This document shows positions 8,396-19,873 of a stretch of 64,000 nt of DNA, in pieces (position 1 is the stretch's first letter; every line of letters begins with the position of its first letter). Below the pieces are notes generated by a model. That model searched no databases. It had not been told where the DNA came from and saw nothing but the letters and a program-made list of their open reading frames with translations. The position numbers and the translations under genes were made by a program. Source of the stretch: Candidatus Segetimicrobium genomatis (GTDB lineage Bacteria > Sysuimicrobiota > Sysuimicrobiia > Sysuimicrobiales > Kaftiobacteriaceae); assembly GCA_005882295.1 (NCBI GenBank), contig VBAI01000011.1:1592-65591 (forward strand). Reading direction: 5' to 3'.

Positions 8396-10114
8396 TCAGC
8401 TTTTGACGCGCAGCGTCCGCAGCCGATTGATCGCGGCGGCGATTTCCTGGCGTCGAGGGAAGGCCAGGTCGCCGGGCGCGCCGTCGGGGGCCAGGCCTTC
8501 AAGCCCGCGCTGGGCGATCTCCAGCTCGATCAATCCAAGCAGCTCGCGCATCGTGCGCATACCATCCACCAGCCCGTGGTCGGCGACCCAGATCAATGCG
8601 GCGGCGATTGCCCGCGCCTGCCCCGGATCGACCAGTTGCTCCAACGCGGCCAGATCCAGCGTGTCCCGACCCAAGAACACCGTGCGGATCTCGTGCGTTC
8701 CGGGGTGTGGATCGCTTCGCAGTCTCCGGCCGCGGAGAAATGCAAAGCCGTCGGGGAGCGGCACGCGGTGGTGGACGCCCCCGAATGACCCCTTCGGCCC
8801 GGCTCCGGGACTCGTCACATGTGCGGCCTGTCTGATCGCGGCGGTCACCGTCCGCAAATGGAAACCATCCATCGCGATGATGGTATCAGCGCAGGCAGCA
8901 TACTCGCTGCTGTGGCTGGTGACGACAATCGTCGACACACCGTGCTCTTCATACAAGGGCCGCACGATCTCGGCCAGGGGGATGACCGTCTGCCTGGCCT
9001 CCGGCGCCAGCTGACGCCAGAGCGGGTCGCGAGCCAGCAGGCCCGGCGCCGACGTATCCTCATCGATCAGCAGCACCGAGCAGCCGGCTTCCAGCGCCTC
9101 CCCGATCCCGGCGGCCTGCGACACGATGTCCCCGGCATGCTCCGCGCGGTATCGCGCTGGATCTTCTCCGCCCGGCAGGGAACTCAGGAATGCGGAGACG
9201 TTGACGCCCTCAATGCGGCGGCCTTCCTCCGCCCGCACCAGCGCCGCGTCGGCGACTGTCGTGCAGTGCTCACGCCCATCGCCTGGAAGATGTGGATACA
9301 CGCCGGTGGCAATGGCCCGCAACAGCGTGCTGCGGCCGGAAAATGGATTCCCCATAATCACGGTCACACCGCGTGGGATACCAACCCCGCTCACCACCCC
9401 CCGGTGCGGCAGATCGAGGGTGACTTTCAACTCCGGCGGCGCCGACAGGGGCACGAGGCGCGAGAGGATCGGGCGATCGGATCCGCTCTCGCGGGGGAGC
9501 ACCGCCCCCTCGGCCAGAAAGGCCACCAGGCCCCGTGCGGACAGCTGCAGGCGTAAGGCCTCGGCGTCCTCGGCCACCTCGACGTGACGCTGCGCCGCGT
9601 TGGGATTCAGGTTGGGGTAGATCAGCGCGCTGTCGACGAGCTGCGGAAGATCCTCGAAGAGCACGGTCTGGGCCGCCTTGGACACAATCTTTCGGCCCTC
9701 TGCCGGCAGGAAGATGGTGCAGCGAATCTCAACGTAATTTTCCGCCATCCGGCAGGCGGTGCGTTCGAGGATCTGTTGACCGCCGACATCGACAGCAAAC
9801 TGGGGCCGCCCGCCCCGAGAGCGGGCCACCTTCCGGATGGCCTCCAGCCAGCGCCGGGCGATGAAATCTTCCAGGGCGATCTTGCCGGGGCGGGACGCCC
9901 ACAACGACGCCGGAAATCTGGCCTCCGCCTGGTCGAGCCGGACCCGCAACGGCGATGGTGCCCCCGGCGGCTCCACGACCACATGGTCCACATGCAACGT
10001 GAAGCGCTCGAACCGGTACTCGCCGTCCAGCGCCTGGTATGCCTGGAAGGGCTTGCCCTCAAGGGTCAGGATCTTGTCGCGGAGGCGCTCCCACGGCAGC
10101 ATGGCAGATACCAA
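8396..10114 (-). CDS. ABC-class ATPase-like protein (resembles the 'predicted ATPase of the ABC class' family)
   Basis: 572 aa. Degenerate Walker A GNPFSGRSTLL, Walker B VLLIDEDTS, and an H-loop-like VVTSHSS. The 8-nt gap to the upstream CYTH-DNPH1 gene suggests an operon. Confidence 0.55.
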   Translation of the reverse strand: MVSAMLPWERLRDKILTLEGKPFQAYQALDGEYRFERFTLHVDHVVVEPPGAPSPLRVRLDQAEARFPASLWASRPGKIALEDFIARRWLEAIRKVARSRGGRPQFAVDVGGQQILERTACRMAENYVEIRCTIFLPAEGRKIVSKAAQTVLFEDLPQLVDSALIYPNLNPNAAQRHVEVAEDAEALRLQLSARGLVAFLAEGAVLPRESGSDRPILSRLVPLSAPPELKVTLDLPHRGVVSGVGIPRGVTVIMGNPFSGRSTLLRAIATGVYPHLPGDGREHCTTVADAALVRAEEGRRIEGVNVSAFLSSLPGGEDPARYRAEHAGDIVSQAAGIGEALEAGCSVLLIDEDTSAPGLLARDPLWRQLAPEARQTVIPLAEIVRPLYEEHGVSTIVVTSHSSEYAACADTIIAMDGFHLRTVTAAIRQAAHVTSPGAGPKGSFGGVHHRVPLPDGFAFLRGRRLRSDPHPGTHEIRTVFLGRDTLDLAALEQLVDPGQARAIAAALIWVADHGLVDGMRTMRELLGLIELEIAQRGLEGLAPDGAPGDLAFPRRQEIAAAINRLRTLRVKS

Positions 10115-10172
10115 CGGCGGGACTAGGGACTAGGGACTTGGGACTGGTTACGGCTCGGCATCCCTAGTCGCC
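10115..10172. repeat. Family A tandem heptamer arm (GGGACTAGGGACTAGGGACTTGGGACTGG) with a weak inverted partner
   Basis: Lies in the 8-bp gap region between the ABC-ATPase start and the CYTH-DNPH1 stop, overlapping the gene ends. Confidence 0.6.
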
Positions 10173-11151
10173 TCTCCAGTAGACTCATTAACTCTCCTTC
10201 ATCTCCATATCGGATGACGCGTAATCCGGGATTACCTTCAATCATCGCCGACAGTGCCACATCGGTCCGGCACAGACAGATGATGGACTTGCCGAGGTGC
10301 TGCGCGGTGGCGACTTCCACCCCCACACCCAGCGAGGGGATCGAGACCTCGGCGATCACCAGATCACACTCCAGGAGCCAGCGAATGTCACGCTCATAGA
10401 TCTGCGCGGCGTCGCCCCCTTCGCGCTGTTCCTCGGCAATGACATCCCGCGCGGCGACGTGGCTGGTCAGCACGTCATAGCCGCGCTGGGCGAGGAAGTC
10501 GACAATGCTCGCATACAGCGGCTGTAGGGATCTGCCGCCATGGATGGATCCGCAGAAGTACACCTTGCGCGCCGCGGGCCGCAGGTGTGCCGCCACGAGC
10601 GCAGCCACCGGCTCAGGGATCACCGCTTCCGCGGGCACGCCCAACGCGCCGAGTTTGCGGAGGATGGCCCCGGCCGCGGTGGCTGGATTCTGGCCCTCCA
10701 CTTCCAGCTCGCACATCCAGCCGATCCCGTCCACTTGCTCTGCGACCAGCTCGCCGACATCGGGGATGTCGTAGAAGAGGCCGGCTTTCTTGCGCACGAC
10801 TAACCAGGGGTCGTAGCCGAGCCCGGCGGCGAGGGTACGGCACTCGTCAGCGGAGCCGGCATAGAGGCGGACTTTCCCTTCGGGAAACCGTGACCGCTTG
10901 AACGAGAGTCCGTTGACCTGCACCACATCGGTCCAGGTCAGGAGCACTTCGCTGGGCTGCGCCGGGCGGTGGTGTTCGCGGACGCGCAGGGCCCGCGTGC
11001 GCGGGTCCCACGCGCCGCCGGGTGGCCGGTAGTAGTGATCGGTGAACGCGTACTCGAAGCGGACCCGGCCACCGAGTGTGGCGATGCGCCGGCGGAACGC
11101 CTCGACGTCGTCGATGAGGAAGCGGACTTCGCACTCGAAGGGAGCCGTCAT
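10123..11151 (-). CDS. CYTH (CyaB/ThTPase-like triphosphate tunnel) domain fused to a DNPH1/Rcl-like nucleoside 2-deoxyribosyltransferase-fold domain
   Basis: N-terminal MTAPFECEVRFLIDD...GGRVRFEYAFTDHYYRPPG matches the CyaB-like ExExK opening. The C-terminal YFCGSIHGGRS...DIRWLLECDLVIAEVSIPSLGVGVEVA...SAMIEGN closely parallels DNPH1 (YFCGSIRGGR...PSLGVGYELG...SAMIRGA). The ORF track starts at a TTG (11208) inside repeat F; ATG at 11151 is preferred. Confidence 0.7.
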   Translation of the reverse strand: MTAPFECEVRFLIDDVEAFRRRIATLGGRVRFEYAFTDHYYRPPGGAWDPRTRALRVREHHRPAQPSEVLLTWTDVVQVNGLSFKRSRFPEGKVRLYAGSADECRTLAAGLGYDPWLVVRKKAGLFYDIPDVGELVAEQVDGIGWMCELEVEGQNPATAAGAILRKLGALGVPAEAVIPEPVAALVAAHLRPAARKVYFCGSIHGGRSLQPLYASIVDFLAQRGYDVLTSHVAARDVIAEEQREGGDAAQIYERDIRWLLECDLVIAEVSIPSLGVGVEVATAQHLGKSIICLCRTDVALSAMIEGNPGLRVIRYGDEGELMSLLERRLGMPSRNQSQVPSP

Positions 11152-11164
11152 CTTCCACTCAAGT

Positions 11165-11262
11165 GGAGAGCGTCTCGGGAACGCGGGAACGGGGGAACGC
11201 GGGAACAACTGCTCACGTTGTCCGCTCGCGTTCCCGTGTTCCCGCGATCCCGCGTTCCCGTC
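11165..11262. repeat. Hairpin element family F (GGGAACGCGGGAACGGGGGAACGCGGGAAC ... GTTCCCGTGTTCCCGCGATCCCGCGTTCCCG)
   Basis: Tandem GGGAACG units with an inverted CGTTCCC arm. Sits between the acyl-CoA dehydrogenase stop and the CYTH-DNPH1 start. Confidence 0.8.
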
Positions 11263-16794: not shown

Positions 16795-17601
16795 CTAGTG
16801 TTGACAAGCCGGGCAATAGAACGACGGCCTCCCACCCAGGCGCGCTTCTTTGATCGTGCCATCGCCGCGCGGGCAGCGCTGTCCGGCTCGACCATAGACC
16901 GCCAACCGCCAGCGGCCCATCCGGCCTGCGGCGTCCACAAACTCCGGCTCCCCGCCCGCCGCGATCGCCCGCCGCAGCACGCTACGGATCGACCGGTGGA
17001 GGACCCGTGTTTCCGCAGGCGTGAGCGATGACGCCGGACGGTCGGGGCGGATGCGGGCGGCGTGCAGGATCTCATGCGCCCACAGGTTCCCGATGCCGGC
17101 AATTCGTTCCTGGTCCGTCAGCAGTGCCCGGATGCTTCCGCGGCCCGCCAGCATCTGACGAAATCGCGCGGGCGTGAAGGTGGGAGAAAGAGGGTCTACA
17201 CCGAGTGAGGCCAGATACGCGACGCGATCCAGCTGAGGCGTCCGGTGCAATCCCAGCTCCGAGAGCTGCAGCTCGCGGAAGTGCAGGCTGCTGCCGTCGG
17301 AAAAAGCGATCACTACCGCAGTCTGCGCGTCCGGGGGGACCGCGGGGCGAACGAAGCGCAGCGTGCCCCACAGCTTGAAGTGAAAGATCAGTGTCCAGCC
17401 GCCGCTGAGCTGAAACAGCAGGGTCTTCCCGCGGCGGCTGACCCGTTCGATGCGCTTCCCAGCCAGCGCATCGGCAAATGCCTGCGGGCGGTGGGTGCGG
17501 ACGGCGGATGGGGACCGCACCTCTACCGACGCGATGACTTTGCCGCGGATCACGCGCTGCAGGCTTCGCTTGGCGGATTCGACTTCGGGAAGCTCAGGCA
17601 T
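16795..17601 (-). CDS. Formamidopyrimidine-DNA glycosylase / endonuclease VIII family (Fpg/Nei) paralog 1
   Basis: MPELPEVE N-terminus (catalytic Pro2/Glu3), H2TH region, C-terminal zinc finger CPRGDG...YCPACQ. Confidence 0.85.
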   Translation of the reverse strand: MPELPEVESAKRSLQRVIRGKVIASVEVRSPSAVRTHRPQAFADALAGKRIERVSRRGKTLLFQLSGGWTLIFHFKLWGTLRFVRPAVPPDAQTAVVIAFSDGSSLHFRELQLSELGLHRTPQLDRVAYLASLGVDPLSPTFTPARFRQMLAGRGSIRALLTDQERIAGIGNLWAHEILHAARIRPDRPASSLTPAETRVLHRSIRSVLRRAIAAGGEPEFVDAAGRMGRWRLAVYGRAGQRCPRGDGTIKEARLGGRPSFYCPACQH

Positions 17602-17604
17602 CCG

Positions 17605-17716
17605 AATCTACACAAACTACACAACCTACACAATTACCTACGTCGACTAACCACCGGCCATTATCGCGCTGCTTGTGATTGTGTAGATTGTGTAGGTCGT
17701 GTAGGTTGTGTAGGTT
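17605..17716. repeat. Hairpin element family B
   Basis: tctacacaaactacacaacctacacaattacct ... gtgattgtgtagattgtgtaggtcgtgtaggttgtgtagg. Confidence 0.8.
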
Positions 17717-18597
17717 CATTTCAGCAATCTCGACATCCGTCTATCAGCGTAAATCTTGCCGCCGGTCTGACACGCCGGGCAATAGTAGGTTTCCTTATCG
17801 GCAAAGTAGACTGTTTCGATGCGTGTGCGGCAGCGCGGGCACGGCTCGCCCCCGTGCCGGTGCACGCGGAGCAACTCAACCGGCTCGCGCGTTGGCAGCT
17901 GCGTTCCAAAACGGGTCCGGTGCTTCTGCAGCGCGGCAGCAAATACGCTCCGGATGGCGGCGTACAGCCTGGCCACCTCGTCGCTGGAGAGACGCGCGGC
18001 CGGCGCAAACGGCGACAGCTTAGCTTCCCACAGGATCTCATCCGCGAAAGCGTTCCCGATGCCCACGACATGGCGCTGCTGGGTGATCGCGCGTTTCAGC
18101 TGTCCCGGTTCCGCCTGGACGGCGCGGGCCAGCACATCGGCGGTGAACTGCTCACTGAGCGGATCCGGCCCTAACCCCGCCAGGGGCTCGCTCGACGCAG
18201 CATCCTGCGCGCGCAGCACATAGACCCCTGCCCGCTTTTTGGGCCCGGCTTCGTTCACGCGCAGTTCATCTCCCCCTTCGAGGAACAACCCGAACGCCAT
18301 CGGCTTGGGCGCCGGCGAGGCGCGGCCCTTGCGCGCTGCACTTCCGGCCCGCGCGATCTGCAGGCGGCCGTCGCGCATGAGGTGCATGACAAGGAGCAGA
18401 TCGTCTGAGAGATCGGACACGATGAGCTTACCGATCCGCCGGACGCGCTCGATGCGACGGCCGGCCAGCGCGCTGACCGGTGGGTCAAACGTTTTCACGA
18501 TGGCCGGACTGGGCACGCGCACCGACACAATCGTGTGACCCTCAATCTCGCGGGCGAGATTCTCTACCAGCACCTGGATGAATGGGAGCTCAGGCAT
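17716..18597 (-). CDS. Fpg/Nei family DNA glycosylase paralog 2
   Basis: MPELPF N-terminus and C-terminal zinc finger CPRCRTRIE...YYCPACQ. The ORF-track start at 18696 runs through repeat C and is rejected. Confidence 0.8.
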   Translation of the reverse strand: MPELPFIQVLVENLAREIEGHTIVSVRVPSPAIVKTFDPPVSALAGRRIERVRRIGKLIVSDLSDDLLLVMHLMRDGRLQIARAGSAARKGRASPAPKPMAFGLFLEGGDELRVNEAGPKKRAGVYVLRAQDAASSEPLAGLGPDPLSEQFTADVLARAVQAEPGQLKRAITQQRHVVGIGNAFADEILWEAKLSPFAPAARLSSDEVARLYAAIRSVFAAALQKHRTRFGTQLPTREPVELLRVHRHGGEPCPRCRTRIETVYFADKETYYCPACQTGGKIYADRRMSRLLK

Positions 18598-18606
18598 CGC
18601 CACCTC

Positions 18607-18684
18607 AAGTCTACACAGTCTTCCCAGTCCCCCCAGTCTTCCCAGTCTACTTCGCGGACGAAACGTACTGAGACTGGGTAGACT
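18607..18684. repeat. Hairpin element family C
   Basis: gtctacacagtcttcccagtccccccagtcttcccagtctac ... gagactgggtagac. Confidence 0.8.
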
Positions 18685-19873
18685 ATGGTTTGACACCTAG
18701 TACACGATGCACCTCAGCACGGAGCGACGCCAGCGCGTCATGTACCTGCTCGGGAGGGACGGCGCCCTGGGCGAAGGCCGGGCGTCCTCCGCCCCGGCCG
18801 CCCAGCGGCTCAAGGGCGCGGCGTAGTAGGGCGGCGGCATCCAGATCCAGGTCCGATGATCTGGCGACTATCACGCGCCCGTCGGAGGTGGCGAGTGCGG
18901 CGATGGTGGAGCCGGCAGCCGCGAGCCGGCCCGCCAGCGCCGACGTCATCTCCGCCGACCACCCGGGCAGCACCTCGGTCACAATCCTGGGCGTGCCCGG
19001 AAGGTTTTCGAGCCGGCGCTGCGCTTCGAGTTCCACCAGCTGATCGCGCAGGCCGGCCAGCGTGCGGTCGCGTTCGCGGAGTTGCCCCATGAGCCGCTCC
19101 ACCGCCTCGGCGACCTCTTGATCCTTCACGCTGAGCTTCACCGCGAGATCGCGTACCAGCGCGTTCTTCCACCGGGAGTCGCGGAGGGCGCGCCATCCGC
19201 ACAAGAACTCCACGCGCATCCCTCCCTTGAAGCGCTCCCACCGCCGGAGCCGCACCGCCCCGATCTCGCCCGTGCGACGCACGTGGGTCCCACCGCACGC
19301 TGAACGGTCAAACTCCTCGACGTCGACCACCCGGATGCGGCCTCGCTTCTTGGCCGGGCGGCGCAGCCCCAGGCTCGAAAGCTCCGCCTCGTCGACCTCG
19401 TAGACCAGCACCGGCCGGTCCTCGAAGACAATGCGGTTGGCGAGATCCTCCACCTGCGCCGCGGCCGCGGCGGAGAGGTCGGCGAGATCCAGATCCAGCG
19501 TGCAGAGTTCGGCCCCCAGGTGCACGGCACGCGTTTGCGCCTGCATCGCCTGGAGAAACGCCTGCGAGAGTATATGCTGACCGGTGTGTTGCTGCATGTG
19601 GTCGAATCGCCTCGGCCAGTCGATCGCGCCGGCCACGGCGCCTGTGAGCGGTGCGGAGACCAAGTGGAGCACGCGGTCCTCACCGTCTTCGATCACGTCC
19701 GTCACCGGTACCCCACTCAACGTACCGGTATCGTGCGGCTGGCCGCCGGACGTCGGATAGAAGGCGGTGCGGTCGAGGATCACCGCCAGCCGGTCGCCAT
19801 GGGGCTCCGACGCGAGCACGGTCGCCTCGAACTGCGTGAGGTAGCTATCAGCGTAGTACAGCCGCTCTGTCAC
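18683..19873 (-). CDS. alaX: Alanyl-tRNA editing protein AlaX-L (AlaRS editing-domain homolog)
   Basis: HTGQHIL and CGGTHV zinc-binding motifs. 396 aa. Confidence 0.8.
   Translation of the reverse strand: MTERLYYADSYLTQFEATVLASEPHGDRLAVILDRTAFYPTSGGQPHDTGTLSGVPVTDVIEDGEDRVLHLVSAPLTGAVAGAIDWPRRFDHMQQHTGQHILSQAFLQAMQAQTRAVHLGAELCTLDLDLADLSAAAAAQVEDLANRIVFEDRPVLVYEVDEAELSSLGLRRPAKKRGRIRVVDVEEFDRSACGGTHVRRTGEIGAVRLRRWERFKGGMRVEFLCGWRALRDSRWKNALVRDLAVKLSVKDQEVAEAVERLMGQLRERDRTLAGLRDQLVELEAQRRLENLPGTPRIVTEVLPGWSAEMTSALAGRLAAAGSTIAALATSDGRVIVARSSDLDLDAAALLRRALEPLGGRGGGRPAFAQGAVPPEQVHDALASLRAEVHRVLGVKP

What the first reader, a model, noticed from the sequence alone, without database searches (positions are those of the whole stretch)
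10123..11151. CYTH-DNPH1 domain fusion in an operon with an ABC-class ATPase: candidate nucleotide-processing or signalling module
The N-terminal ~170 aa look like a CYTH/CyaB-like triphosphate-tunnel domain, opening FECEVRFLIDD...RFEYAFTDHYYRPPGG. CYTH enzymes act on triphosphates such as NTP, thiamine-PPP and polyphosphate, or cyclise ATP. The C-terminal ~150 aa closely resemble 2'-deoxynucleoside 5'-phosphate N-hydrolase DNPH1/Rcl (YFCGSIHGGR...PSLGVGVEVA...SAMIEGN versus YFCGSIRGGR...PSLGVGYELG...SAMIRGA), including the catalytic-Glu position. I am not aware of a characterised protein combining a triphosphate-tunnel enzyme with a nucleotide N-glycosidase. An 8-nt gap separates it from a 572-aa degenerate ABC-class ATPase (8396-10114), so the two are probably co-transcribed. 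A plausible function is a dNTP-to-dNMP-to-base sanitising or depletion pathway. The other possibility is a cyclic-nucleotide generator coupled to a nucleotide-cleaving effector, as in conflict/defence systems.
Basis: partly seen in the sequence, partly recalled or inferred. Interest (0 to 1): 0.7.

Follow-up and report, generated by a model that had tools for sequence, protein, structure and literature searches.

The report
Triphosphatase fused to deoxynucleotide base-remover
A soil bacterium from the uncultivated phylum Sysuimicrobiota has a real, conserved gene that joins a triphosphate-cleaving enzyme to an enzyme that removes the base from deoxynucleotides; this pairing has not been described before and probably helps clean up or recycle DNA building blocks, rather than acting in signalling or phage defence.

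Summary
Window 10123-11151 (minus strand) encodes a 342-aa protein. Residues 1-190 are a CYTH/triphosphate-tunnel domain. Residues 193-330 are a DNPH1/Rcl-type 2'-deoxynucleoside 5'-phosphate N-glycosidase, 45% identical to rat Rcl. The fusion is not an assembly artefact: the exact sequence recurs on many contigs and orthologues occur in 15 further loci. It is rare, though, with about 4-5 clusters at 50% identity among 1.84 billion representatives, all in the Sysuimicrobiota (CSP1-3) lineage.

Published discriminating motifs mark the CYTH half as a triphosphatase, not a class IV adenylyl cyclase. This argues against the cyclic-nucleotide reading. I found no defence context.

The DNPH1 half keeps its catalytic and phosphate-binding residues. 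It never has the Glu that human DNPH1 uses to release the covalent intermediate.

Elsewhere DNPH1 domains are fused to MutT-like NUDIX, dTMP kinase and cytidine deaminase. That supports a nucleotide-pool clean-up or catabolic role. However, known tunnel triphosphatases yield NDP, not the NMP that DNPH1 needs.

The MRB1590-like ATPase is always adjacent and probably co-transcribed. Each gene also occurs without the other in the same syntenic slot, so functional coupling is unproven.

It is a new domain architecture built from two known enzyme families, of moderate interest.

The parts
10123..11151 (-). Complete CYTH-DNPH1 fusion gene (342 aa; stop codon TAG at 10123-10125)
   Evidence: ORF listing. 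The start is fixed by the family alignment. The exact protein is public as TMJ13089.1 / UniRef100_A0A537LYJ1, Ca. Segetimicrobium genomatis.
10582..11151 (-). CYTH / triphosphate-tunnel (TTM-type) domain, residues 1-190. Motifs: E6-x-E8-x-R10, D38-x-Y40, A54-x-R56-x-R58, K85, K93, K121, E138, E148-x-E150.
10162..10575 (-). DNPH1/Rcl-type 2'-deoxynucleoside 5'-phosphate N-glycosidase domain, residues 193-330. Key residues: Y198, H231, D255, S273, nucleophile E279, S301. S230 sits where human DNPH1 has E55, and H204 where it has R30.
10126..10161 (-). Low-confidence C-terminal tail, residues 331-342; variable in length and sequence between orthologues
   Evidence: pLDDT below 50 for residues 334-342. 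The alignment shows variable tails. It overlaps a 7-nt tandem repeat.
8396..10102 (-). Downstream MRB1590-like ABC-class ATPase: 568 aa from the ATG at 10102, or 572 aa from the TTG at 10114. Probably co-transcribed; function unknown.
   Evidence: Pfam ABC_N, ABC_ATPase (4.5e-84) and MRB1590_C. PDB 5d6a 3.6e-85 and MRB1590 4yix 4.9e-73. Adjacent to the fusion in all 15 other fusion loci.
9326..9352 (-). ATPase Walker A motif with Arg in place of the canonical Lys (GNPFSGRST)
   Evidence: The Lys-to-Arg change is confined to the subclade at 60% identity or more to the window. Fusion-adjacent ATPases P0275 and P0290-P0292 and the one in L012 keep Lys.
11176..11260 (-). Structured spacer between the acyl-CoA dehydrogenase gene and the fusion gene: two inverted arrays of about four 8-nt repeats that form an ~85-nt hairpin. 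Possible terminator or insulator marking the 5' limit of the fusion-ATPase transcription unit.
   Evidence: RNA fold dG -70.7 kcal/mol, z=-7.5. Tandem repeats. The motif is enriched here. No Rfam family. L001 has the same design with a different repeat unit.

Best explanation
The gene encodes a two-domain enzyme of deoxynucleotide housekeeping.

N-terminal half. This is a metal-dependent triphosphate-tunnel hydrolase. It would bind a triphosphate chain between a basic wall (R10, R56, R58, K85, K93, K121) and an acidic metal-binding wall (E6, E8, E138, E148, E150), and remove the terminal phosphate. The substrate would be inorganic triphosphate or a (deoxy)nucleoside triphosphate. It is not an adenylyl cyclase.

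C-terminal half. This is a DNPH1-type N-glycosidase. Working as a dimer, it would bind a 2'-deoxynucleoside 5'-monophosphate. S273, and S301 from the partner subunit, would hold the phosphate. Y198 would select deoxyribose. E279 would attack C1' to release the base, leaving a covalent deoxyribose-5-phosphate-enzyme intermediate that is then resolved.

Together. The two halves most likely act in one route that degrades or sanitises (non-canonical) deoxynucleotides. This mirrors the NUDIX-DNPH1 fusions of other bacteria.

Neighbour. The MRB1590-like ATPase downstream is probably co-transcribed, but its contribution is unknown.

Shown here: domain identities, the fold, conservation of the catalytic motifs, the triphosphatase-not-cyclase motif pattern, and the taxonomic and syntenic distribution. 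Inferred: the substrates, the coupling of the two halves, and co-transcription.
For: - Domain identity and fold. AlphaFold2 mean pLDDT 91.4.
- Triphosphatase rather than cyclase: PMC8233210 says true class IV cyclases need HFxxxxExExK, replace the first Arg of xRxR with a small residue, and replace ExE with ExA. In this family HF is present in 0 of 38 sequences, both Arg are kept in all, and ExE is kept in 60 of 61 and 38 of 40. The DxY motif is present as D38-H39-Y40; D38 is invariant across the wider CYTH subfamily and Y40 across the fusion-family alignment.
- DNPH1 chemistry: Y198, D255, S273, E279 and S301 are invariant in 55 of 55 fusions and H231 in 54 of 55. They map to rat Y13/D69/S87/E93/S117/H45. 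Residue roles come from PMC10603095: the Y24/D80/E104 triad, H56 for base contact, S98 and S128' for phosphate, and Tyr versus MilB Phe17 setting deoxyribose versus ribose preference.
- Pathway analogy: close DNPH1 homologues (40-50% identity) are fused to NUDIX in P0120, P0127 and P0138. P0138 scores 87.5 bits against the MutT model (cutoff 97.9) and 65.8 against the pyrimidine (d)NTP diphosphatase model (cutoff 156), so it is MutT-like without reaching either cutoff. Others are fused to dTMP kinase (P0161) and cytidine deaminase (P0201).
- Housekeeping context: a syntenic block of metabolic and repair genes, no PADLOC hit of note, and no viral relatives.
- Likely co-transcription with the ATPase: same strand, with a stop-to-start gap of 10-80 nt in the 12 loci measured, one base between the called genes in L032, and about 73 nt in L027/L028.
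Against: - Characterised relatives of the CYTH half remove only the gamma-phosphate. SaTTM converts ATP or GTP to NDP + Pi and is about 19-fold more active on PPPi (PMC8233210). DNPH1 needs a 5'-monophosphate. A direct two-step relay therefore lacks the NDP-to-NMP step.
- The hallmark Lys of ExExK is Arg throughout the subfamily. The consequence is unknown.
- The stand-alone CYTH subfamily is much more widespread than the fusion. It occurs in Planctomycetota and other groups with no DNPH1 nearby, so the CYTH half has a function that does not depend on DNPH1.
- The fusion family never has the Glu equivalent to human E55. In the human enzyme, losing it cuts turnover about 150-fold by trapping the covalent intermediate. 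The C-terminal half may therefore be a slow hydrolase or may resolve the intermediate in another way.
- No biochemical or expression data exist. The relative orientation of the two domains in the model is uncertain (pTM 0.68).
Confidence: 0.5

Rival explanations
1. The two activities are independent. The CYTH half is simply an inorganic triphosphate or short-polyphosphate phosphatase, and the DNPH1 half a dNMP N-glycosidase. The fusion would reflect co-expression or chance gene fusion in one lineage, with no shared pathway.
For: - PPPi is the preferred substrate of the nearest characterised tunnel enzymes.
- The stand-alone CYTH subfamily is widespread and has no conserved nucleotide-metabolism neighbours.
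- The fusion is confined to one phylum, in about 4-5 clusters at 50% identity.
- DNPH1 domains also occur fused to partners with no obvious functional link, such as MsrA, GNAT and DUF1801.
Against: - The fusion persists across orthologues down to 45-47% identity, with the catalytic residues of both halves intact. This suggests selection on the combined protein.
- DNPH1 fuses repeatedly to NTP-handling enzymes such as NUDIX and dTMP kinase. That makes a nucleotide-handling partner the more economical reading.
Confidence: 0.27
2. Signalling or defence module. The CYTH half makes a cyclic nucleotide or another nucleotide signal. The DNPH1-like half, which shares a fold with TIR and ThsB domains, acts as a nucleotide-cleaving effector. 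The ABC-class ATPase acts as sensor, as in conflict systems.
For: - JGI annotates some homologues as 'adenylate cyclase class IV'.
- ABC-type ATPases serve as sensors in several defence systems (papers listed).
Against: - All three class IV cyclase determinants are absent.
- The PADLOC hits are at noise level: E=0.016 and 0.033, covering short stretches.
- No viral-contig relatives.
- The locus lies in a conserved housekeeping syntenic block, in a window whose GC content stays between 0.62 and 0.68.
- The C-terminal half is 45% identical to true DNPH1 and has the full dNMP-binding and catalytic set, unlike TIR domains.
- The ATPase and the CYTH gene each occur alone in the same slot.
Confidence: 0.05
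3. The CYTH half is mainly a regulatory ligand sensor. It would bind PPPi, an NTP or an alarmone-like triphosphate and gate the DNPH1 half allosterically, rather than supplying its substrate.
For: - The hallmark Lys is replaced by Arg (ExExR) throughout the subfamily.
- Known tunnel-enzyme chemistry does not produce a DNPH1 substrate.
- Tunnel closure and product inhibition have been described for tunnel enzymes (abstract of PMC8233210).
Against: - Every metal-binding and phosphate-binding residue needed for catalysis is conserved, in the fusions and in the stand-alone proteins alike. That is what an active enzyme would look like.
- Arg can still bind phosphate.
Confidence: 0.08
4. Three-part nucleic-acid or nucleotide surveillance unit. 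The MRB1590-like ATPase, an RNA-binding ABC fold in trypanosomes, would engage nucleic acid or nucleotides and work together with the fusion enzyme, which disposes of released or aberrant nucleotides.
For: - The fusion-ATPase adjacency holds in the window and in all 15 other fusion loci, with short gaps, while the outer flanks vary: ACAD or S41 upstream, and PALP, LemA or a hypothetical gene downstream.
- No fusion was found without the ATPase.
- The family's one characterised member, MRB1590, binds RNA (PMC4538832, listed).
Against: - ATPase-only and CYTH-only loci occupy the same syntenic position.
- A more distant ATPase homologue sits in an unrelated context: PMT, then the ATPase, then Vut_1 and QueF.
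- The DNPH1 domain and the ATPase gene are physically contiguous, so a single insertion or deletion explains why they appear and disappear together.
- The Walker A Lys-to-Arg change does not track the fusion.
Confidence: 0.1

Closest known systems
DNPH1 / Rcl (2'-deoxynucleoside 5'-phosphate N-hydrolase 1; rat 2khz, human 4p5e and 8os9)
   Same: - 45% identity over about 140 residues.
- Same fold.
- The Tyr/Asp/Glu triad (Y198/D255/E279), the base-contacting His (H231) and the two phosphate-binding Ser (S273, S301) are all conserved (against PMC10603095).
   Different: - It is fused to an N-terminal CYTH domain.
- The Glu equivalent to human E55, which releases the intermediate, is never present in the fusion family (T/A/K/S/R/P).
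- In the window protein, the Arg equivalent to human R30 is His (H204), while most orthologues in the alignments have Arg there.
- It is bacterial and restricted to Sysuimicrobiota.
SaTTM (Saci_0718) and the archaeal CyaB-like tunnel enzymes PH1012, PH1819 and Pfu-838710
   Same: - Profile hits at 1e-6 to 1e-10 to the Pyrococcus proteins and 7.6e-4 to SaTTM.
- Same AxRxR, DxY and ExE motif pattern, which PMC8233210 assigns to triphosphatases.
   Different: - ExExK is ExExR.
- A distinctive YAFTDHYY / W48 / W116 signature.
- The domain is followed by a DNPH1 domain.
- Substrate untested.
Class IV adenylyl cyclase (CyaB; Yersinia pestis 2fjt/3n0y)
   Different: It lacks the HF motif, keeps the first Arg of xRxR and keeps the second Glu of ExE. 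All three features contradict cyclase function under the published rules.
NUDIX-DNPH1 fusion proteins found here (P0120, P0127, P0138; uncharacterised)
   Same: An N-terminal nucleoside-triphosphate-handling hydrolase is followed by a DNPH1 domain carrying the full catalytic set. This is the closest architectural analogue.
   Different: - The N-terminal domain has a different fold.
- Its chemistry (NTP to NMP + PPi) feeds DNPH1 directly.
- P0120 and P0138 keep the E55-equivalent Glu, while P0127 has Gln there.
MilB / BcmB CMP and hydroxymethyl-CMP N-glycosidases (4ohr)
   Different: - Only 19% identity.
- MilB has Phe (F17) where this protein has Tyr, and Glu (E62) where it has His. Those residues set ribose and cytosine specificity.
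- MilB is part of an antibiotic biosynthesis cluster.
MRB1590 / COG3044 'predicted ATPase of the ABC class' (4yix, 5d6a), for the neighbouring gene
   Same: Full three-domain match: ABC_N, ABC_ATPase and MRB1590_C. 5d6a scores E=3.6e-85.
   Different: - The Walker A Lys is Arg and the signature motif is altered in this subclade.
- No function is known for the bacterial members.

Membership tests
DNPH1/Rcl-type dNMP N-glycosidase (Pfam PF05014 superfamily) | Significant sequence and profile match over the whole domain | tested here: met
   PF05014 47.5 bits, above the 28.8 cutoff. Rat Rcl E=2.4e-26 and human DNPH1 about 1e-24.
DNPH1/Rcl-type dNMP N-glycosidase (Pfam PF05014 superfamily) | Catalytic triad Tyr/Asp/Glu (human Y24/D80/E104) with Glu as nucleophile | tested here: met
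   Y198, D255 and E279 are invariant in 55 of 55 fusions. The register was checked against rat Y13/D69/E93. Roles from PMC10603095.
DNPH1/Rcl-type dNMP N-glycosidase (Pfam PF05014 superfamily) | 5'-phosphate binding by two Ser (human S98 and S128' from the dimer partner), and Tyr rather than Phe for deoxyribose preference | tested here: met
   S273, S301 and Y198 are invariant. Roles.
DNPH1/Rcl-type dNMP N-glycosidase (Pfam PF05014 superfamily) | Glu adjacent to the His (human E55) that activates water to release the covalent intermediate | tested here: not met
   This position is S230 in the window and T/A/K/S/R/P in all 55 fusions. 63 of 99 aligned free or otherwise-fused homologues have Glu. 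The feature is invariant in metazoan DNPH1 but is not universal in bacterial homologues.
DNPH1/Rcl-type dNMP N-glycosidase (Pfam PF05014 superfamily) | Measured N-glycosidase activity on dNMPs; homodimer | not testable with these tools
   Needs purified protein.
CYTH / triphosphate tunnel metalloenzyme (Pfam PF01928) | Profile match and eight-stranded tunnel fold | tested here: met
   [not shown]
CYTH / triphosphate tunnel metalloenzyme (Pfam PF01928) | N-terminal ExExK hallmark motif | tested here: inconclusive
   Both Glu are conserved, but the Lys is Arg (ECEVR) in 57 of 61 sequences and throughout the stand-alone subfamily. The substitution is conservative and its effect is unknown.
CYTH / triphosphate tunnel metalloenzyme (Pfam PF01928) | xRxR basic motif, DxY motif and C-terminal ExE metal-binding motif (triphosphatase pattern of PMC8233210) | tested here: met
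   A54-L-R56-V-R58 with both Arg kept in all sequences, D38-H-Y40, and E148-x-E150 in 60 of 61. Rules.
Class IV adenylyl cyclase (CyaB, AC-IV) | HF motif four residues before ExExK | tested here: not met
   0 of 38 sequences have it. Only five residues (MTAPF) precede the first Glu.
Class IV adenylyl cyclase (CyaB, AC-IV) | First Arg of xRxR replaced by a small residue, and second Glu of ExE replaced by Ala | tested here: not met
   Both Arg are retained in all sequences. ExE is retained in 60 of 61 and 38 of 40.
Known anti-phage defence systems (PADLOC models) | Significant match to a defence-system protein model, or a defence-island or mobile context | tested here: not met
   Only ThsB at E=0.016 and PtuA at E=0.033, on short stretches. 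No viral relatives. Conserved housekeeping synteny.
MRB1590-like ABC-class ATPase (PF20446 + PF09818 + PF21117), for the neighbouring gene | Three-domain architecture | tested here: met
   E-values 1.5e-33, 4.5e-84 and 1.6e-28. 5d6a aligns end to end.
MRB1590-like ABC-class ATPase (PF20446 + PF09818 + PF21117), for the neighbouring gene | Canonical Walker A GxxxxGK[ST] | tested here: not met
   GNPFSGRST, with Arg in place of Lys. More distant members have the canonical GGGYHGKST.

The most novel reading that the evidence does not exclude
The fusion is a single-polypeptide disposal machine for aberrant deoxynucleotides, in which the two active sites are chemically coupled. The tunnel half would strip or supply phosphate or pyrophosphate. 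The DNPH1 half has systematically lost the water-activating Glu, so it would hold a covalent deoxyribose-5-phosphate-enzyme intermediate that is resolved by some route other than simple hydrolysis, for example attack by phosphate or pyrophosphate. The Walker-A-variant MRB1590-like ATPase could be a third partner.

If true, this would give a first physiological role to CyaB-like tunnel enzymes and a new reaction type for the DNPH1 scaffold. A related version is that the preferred substrate is a phage-type nucleotide such as 5-hydroxymethyl-dUTP/dUMP, which would make this a chromosomally fixed anti-phage nucleotide filter.
Probability: 0.12. Interest if true: 0.7.

Novelty: new variant of a known kind. 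Interest (0 to 1): 0.45.

Why it matters
The physiological role of CYTH/tunnel enzymes is still described as largely elusive (PMC8233210). A conserved natural fusion to a deoxynucleotide N-glycosidase is a 'Rosetta stone' clue that ties one CyaB-like subfamily to deoxynucleotide metabolism. It can be tested directly with one recombinant protein.

The work also shows that bacterial DNPH1 domains repeatedly fuse to nucleotide-pool enzymes: NUDIX, dTMP kinase and cytidine deaminase. This extends the 'nucleotide pool sanitiser' idea from human DNPH1, a cancer drug target, to bacteria.

The fusion family also provides natural variants that lack the E55-equivalent residue, which could inform the debated second step of the DNPH1 mechanism.

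There is a practical annotation point too. Public names describe only one half of the protein, and the 'adenylate cyclase class IV' label is probably wrong.

Tried and rejected
- Frameshift or assembly artefact: rejected. The exact sequence recurs across many contigs and sources, and orthologous ORFs are continuous.
- Longer TTG start at 11208: rejected. Almost all homologues start at MTAPFECEV or a close variant; two in the alignment have longer, unrelated N-terminal extensions.
- Adenylyl cyclase: rejected by motif rules.
- Defence system: PADLOC gave noise-level hits only and the viral-contig scan found nothing.
- Riboswitch or other known RNA in the structured upstream spacer: none. The only hit was a sub-threshold miRNA-hairpin match at 29.7 bits against a cutoff of 78.
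- Sigma-70 promoter and intrinsic terminator scans around the genes: no promoter-like sites, and no terminator-like sites in the relevant gaps. This is uninformative for a genome at 65% GC.
- NCBIfam: no family for the fusion protein.
- Literature searches for CYTH with DNPH1 or with nucleoside 2-deoxyribosyltransferase, and for bacterial DNPH1 with phage and NUDIX: nothing relevant.
- General linkage of MRB1590-like ATPases to CYTH, DNPH1 or NUDIX genes outside this lineage: not seen in the five contexts sampled.
- Conserved partners of stand-alone CYTH genes in Planctomycetota: none. The contexts were gyrB, hflX and others.
- Foldseek against afdb50, to look for independent fusions at the structure level: the library was unavailable.
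- A first residue-mapping script had a register error. The rat control exposed it and it was corrected.
Full report
**1. What is in the sequence**

The minus strand carries an ORF at 10123..11208. Alignment with 27, and then 60, homologues shows that the family starts at the ATG at 11151 (MTAPFECEVRF...). The exact protein is already public as TMJ13089.1 ('hypothetical protein') and UniRef100_A0A537LYJ1 ('Putative 2'-deoxynucleoside 5'-phosphate N-hydrolase 1'), from Candidatus Segetimicrobium genomatis. It sits in a 57-member cluster seen on many NCBI, JGI and ENA contigs. That genus belongs to the candidate phylum Sysuimicrobiota, formerly CSP1-3. GC content stays between 0.62 and 0.68 across the whole window.

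**2. The two domains are real**

C-terminal half:
- Pfam Nuc_deoxyrib_tr matches at E=2.4e-12, above the cutoff.
- phmmer against PDB gives rat Rcl at E=2.4e-26 and human DNPH1 at about 1e-24.

N-terminal half:
- In the whole protein, Pfam CYTH scores 20.9 bits, just under the 23.2 cutoff, but along the full model length.
- The isolated 190-aa domain reaches 23.5 bits.
- 46 of 61 family members match CYTH on their own.
- A profile of the subfamily finds the CyaB-like structures 1yem (8.7e-10), Yersinia class IV cyclase (1.9e-8), PH1819, 2aca, PH1012 and SaTTM.

Structure:
- An AlphaFold2 model built from the family alignment has mean pLDDT 91.4. Its pTM is 0.68, so the domain folds are confident but their relative orientation is not.

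**3. The fusion is conserved but rare**

- A word-indexed search found 67 homologues. About 57 are full-length fusions at 47-100% identity.
- An exhaustive HMMER pass over 1.84 billion 50%-identity representatives found only about 4-5 clusters with both domains (P0054, P0068, P0069 and fragments).
- The same pass found roughly 45 stand-alone CYTH representatives of this subfamily (190-200 aa) and many stand-alone DNPH1 proteins of about 140 aa at 40-50% identity.
- A scan of one genome per species returned 12 fusion loci. All are Sysuimicrobiota-type MAGs, variously labelled Armatimonadota, 'Bacillati bacterium ANGP1', Ca. Calidihabitans or Ca. Thermofontivivens.
- It also returned 12 CYTH-related loci without a complete fusion. 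Most are stand-alone CYTH genes in related bacteria and in Pirellulales, Phycisphaerales, Sedimentisphaerales and Polarisedimenticolia. One (L024) is cut off by the contig end after residue 78, so its type cannot be told.
- The most divergent fusions are again labelled 'Armatimonadota'.

**4. What kind of CYTH enzyme is it?**

Vogt et al. (PMC8233210) give three sequence rules. True class IV adenylyl cyclases have an HF motif four residues before ExExK. They replace the first Arg of xRxR with a small residue. They replace the second Glu of the beta-8 ExE motif with Ala. Triphosphatases have none of these changes.

In this family:
- HF is present in 0 of 38 sequences.
- The motif reads A-L-R-V-R, with both Arg kept in all sequences.
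- ExE is kept in 60 of 61 sequences of the fusion-family alignment and 38 of 40 of the subfamily alignment.
- A small residue (Ala54) occupies the Trp position that is diagnostic of thiamine triphosphatase.
- The DxY motif is present as D38-H39-Y40.

The domain is therefore a tunnel triphosphatase by the published criteria, and the JGI label 'adenylate cyclase class IV' is probably wrong. One deviation marks the whole subfamily: the hallmark Lys is Arg (E-C-E-V-R).

The nearest characterised enzyme, SaTTM, removes only the terminal phosphate. It converts ATP or GTP to NDP + Pi, makes no cyclic nucleotide, and is about 19-fold more active on inorganic triphosphate.

**5. What kind of DNPH1 is it?**

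Using the rat Rcl alignment as a register control (Y13, E44, H45, D69, S87, E93, S117), the window protein has Y198, S230, H231, D255, S273, E279 and S301.

- Y198, D255, S273, E279 and S301 are invariant in 55 of 55 fusions, and H231 in 54 of 55.
- According to PMC10603095, these are the Tyr/Asp/Glu triad with Glu as nucleophile, the base-contacting His, and the two phosphate-binding Ser, one of them supplied by the dimer partner.
- Tyr, rather than the Phe17 of MilB, selects deoxyribose. His, rather than the Glu62 of MilB, suits a uracil-type base.
- The domain should therefore bind a 2'-deoxynucleoside 5'-monophosphate and cleave its glycosidic bond.

Two differences stand out:
- The Glu equivalent to human E55 is never present in the fusion family. 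Instead there is T (24), A (12), K (9), S (6), R (3) or P (1). Among free or otherwise-fused homologues, 63 of 99 keep it. In the human enzyme, E55A and E55Q give burst kinetics and about 150-fold lower turnover, because the covalent deoxyribose-phosphate intermediate is trapped.
- In the window protein, the Arg equivalent to human R30 is His204.

**6. Clues from other architectures**

Longer proteins among the DNPH1 hits carry other nucleotide-metabolism domains:
- NUDIX-DNPH1: P0120, P0127 and P0138.
- dTMP kinase-DNPH1: P0161.
- DNPH1 fused to a cytidine/deoxycytidylate deaminase-type domain: P0201.
- Tandem DNPH1: P0076.
- MsrA-, DUF1801- and GNAT-DNPH1.

NCBIfam places the P0138 NUDIX domain nearest to MutT (87.5 bits) and to pyrimidine (d)NTP diphosphatase. 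It identifies the P0201 partner as cytidine deaminase, above that model's cutoff.

Bacterial DNPH1 domains therefore repeatedly join enzymes that act on the nucleotide pool. The NUDIX versions encode a complete route from dNTP to dNMP to base plus deoxyribose-5-phosphate. It is an argument by analogy, because known tunnel-enzyme chemistry stops at the diphosphate.

**7. The ATPase neighbour**

- The downstream gene is a full-length MRB1590-like ABC-class ATPase.
- In all 12 scanned fusion loci, and also in L027/L028 and L032, it follows the fusion on the same strand. The stop-to-start gap is 10-80 nt in the 12 loci measured, one base separates the called genes in L032, and about 73 nt in L027/L028.
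- The pair persists while the outer flanks vary: acyl-CoA dehydrogenase or S41 protease upstream, and a TrpB-like PALP enzyme, LemA or a hypothetical gene downstream.
- However, the whole region is one syntenic block within the phylum: Fpg, SAM hydrolase, CcdA, S41, M20, ACAD, the fusion, the ATPase, the PALP enzyme, and eventually LipB.
- In the same slot there are also ATPase-only loci: L025 (S41-S41-ATPase-PALP), L029 and L031. There are CYTH-only loci as well (S41-CYTH-LemA-TPM): L013, L020, L021 and L023.
- The DNPH1 domain and the ATPase gene are physically contiguous, so one insertion or deletion explains why they are present or absent together.
- A more distant ATPase homologue lies in an unrelated context.
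- The Walker A Lys-to-Arg change and the altered signature motif are confined to the subclade closest to the window. They do not track the fusion.

Co-transcription is therefore plausible, but functional coupling is unproven.

**8. Alternatives**

- Defence or signalling is disfavoured. The reasons are noise-level PADLOC hits, no viral relatives, a housekeeping context, and a non-cyclase motif pattern.
- A purely regulatory CYTH domain is unlikely because every catalytic residue is conserved.
- Independent, unrelated activities remain a serious rival. The stand-alone CYTH subfamily is far more widespread than the fusion and has no conserved nucleotide-metabolism neighbours.

**9. Verdict**

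- This is a new domain architecture (a new variant) built from two well-known enzyme families, restricted to one uncultivated phylum. It is not described in the searchable literature, and in public databases it is named for only one of its two halves.
- Interest is moderate. It offers a testable clue to the long-unclear physiology of CyaB-like tunnel enzymes, and natural DNPH1 variants that lack the intermediate-releasing Glu.

Noticed in passing
window 11176-11260 (compare L001 4825-4915): The spacer between the acyl-CoA dehydrogenase gene and the fusion gene consists of two inverted arrays of about four 8-nt tandem repeats (CGGGAACG and its complement CGCGTTCC). They fold into an ~85-nt hairpin (dG -70.7 kcal/mol, z=-7.5). 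It matches no Rfam family. The orthologous spacer in L001 has the same design with a different repeat unit, while other orthologues have almost no spacer. It could be a terminator or insulator, or a small repeat element.
   Followed up: partly
window 10119-10145: A 7-nt tandem repeat (GGGACTA, 3.9 copies) spans the stop codon and the variable C-terminal tail (..SQVPSP*) of the fusion gene, at its junction with the ATPase gene. Short tandem repeats therefore lie at both ends of the gene.
   Followed up: no
window 9326-9352 (ATPase gene 8396-10102): The MRB1590-like ATPase has Arg in place of the Walker A Lys (GNPFSGRST), and AGDIVSQ where canonical members have SGSTSQ. This holds for 11 of 12 orthologues next to fusions, but not for more distant members. 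It suggests a subclade with altered or lost ATP hydrolysis.
   Followed up: partly
window 16795-17601 and 17716-18696 (minus strand): Two tandem Fpg/Nei-type DNA glycosylase paralogues lie about 6 kb upstream in the same syntenic block. The duplication is also present in several orthologous loci (L004, L010, L011).
   Followed up: no
window 10540-10542 (codon for His204): The window protein has His where human DNPH1 has R30, a base-recognition residue, and where most orthologues have Arg (YFCGSIHGGR versus YFCGSIRGGR). One orthologue has Ser. This may be a substrate-specificity variant within the closest clade.
   Followed up: no
L013, L020, L021, L023 versus L027/L028: Compared with the arrangement S41-fusion-ATPase-LemA-TPM, the sister lineage has S41-CYTH-LemA-TPM. 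That is what a single deletion removing the DNPH1 domain plus the ATPase gene would produce, or the reverse insertion. The direction was not resolved.
   Followed up: partly
proteins P0120, P0127, P0138, P0161, P0201, P0076: These are uncharacterised multi-domain DNPH1 proteins from other organisms: NUDIX-DNPH1, dTMP kinase-DNPH1, DNPH1-cytidine deaminase and tandem DNPH1. The deaminase fusion recalls the human route from deaminase to DNPH1 for 5-hydroxymethyl-deoxynucleotides (that comparison is from my own knowledge). Their taxonomy and genomic context were not examined.
   Followed up: partly
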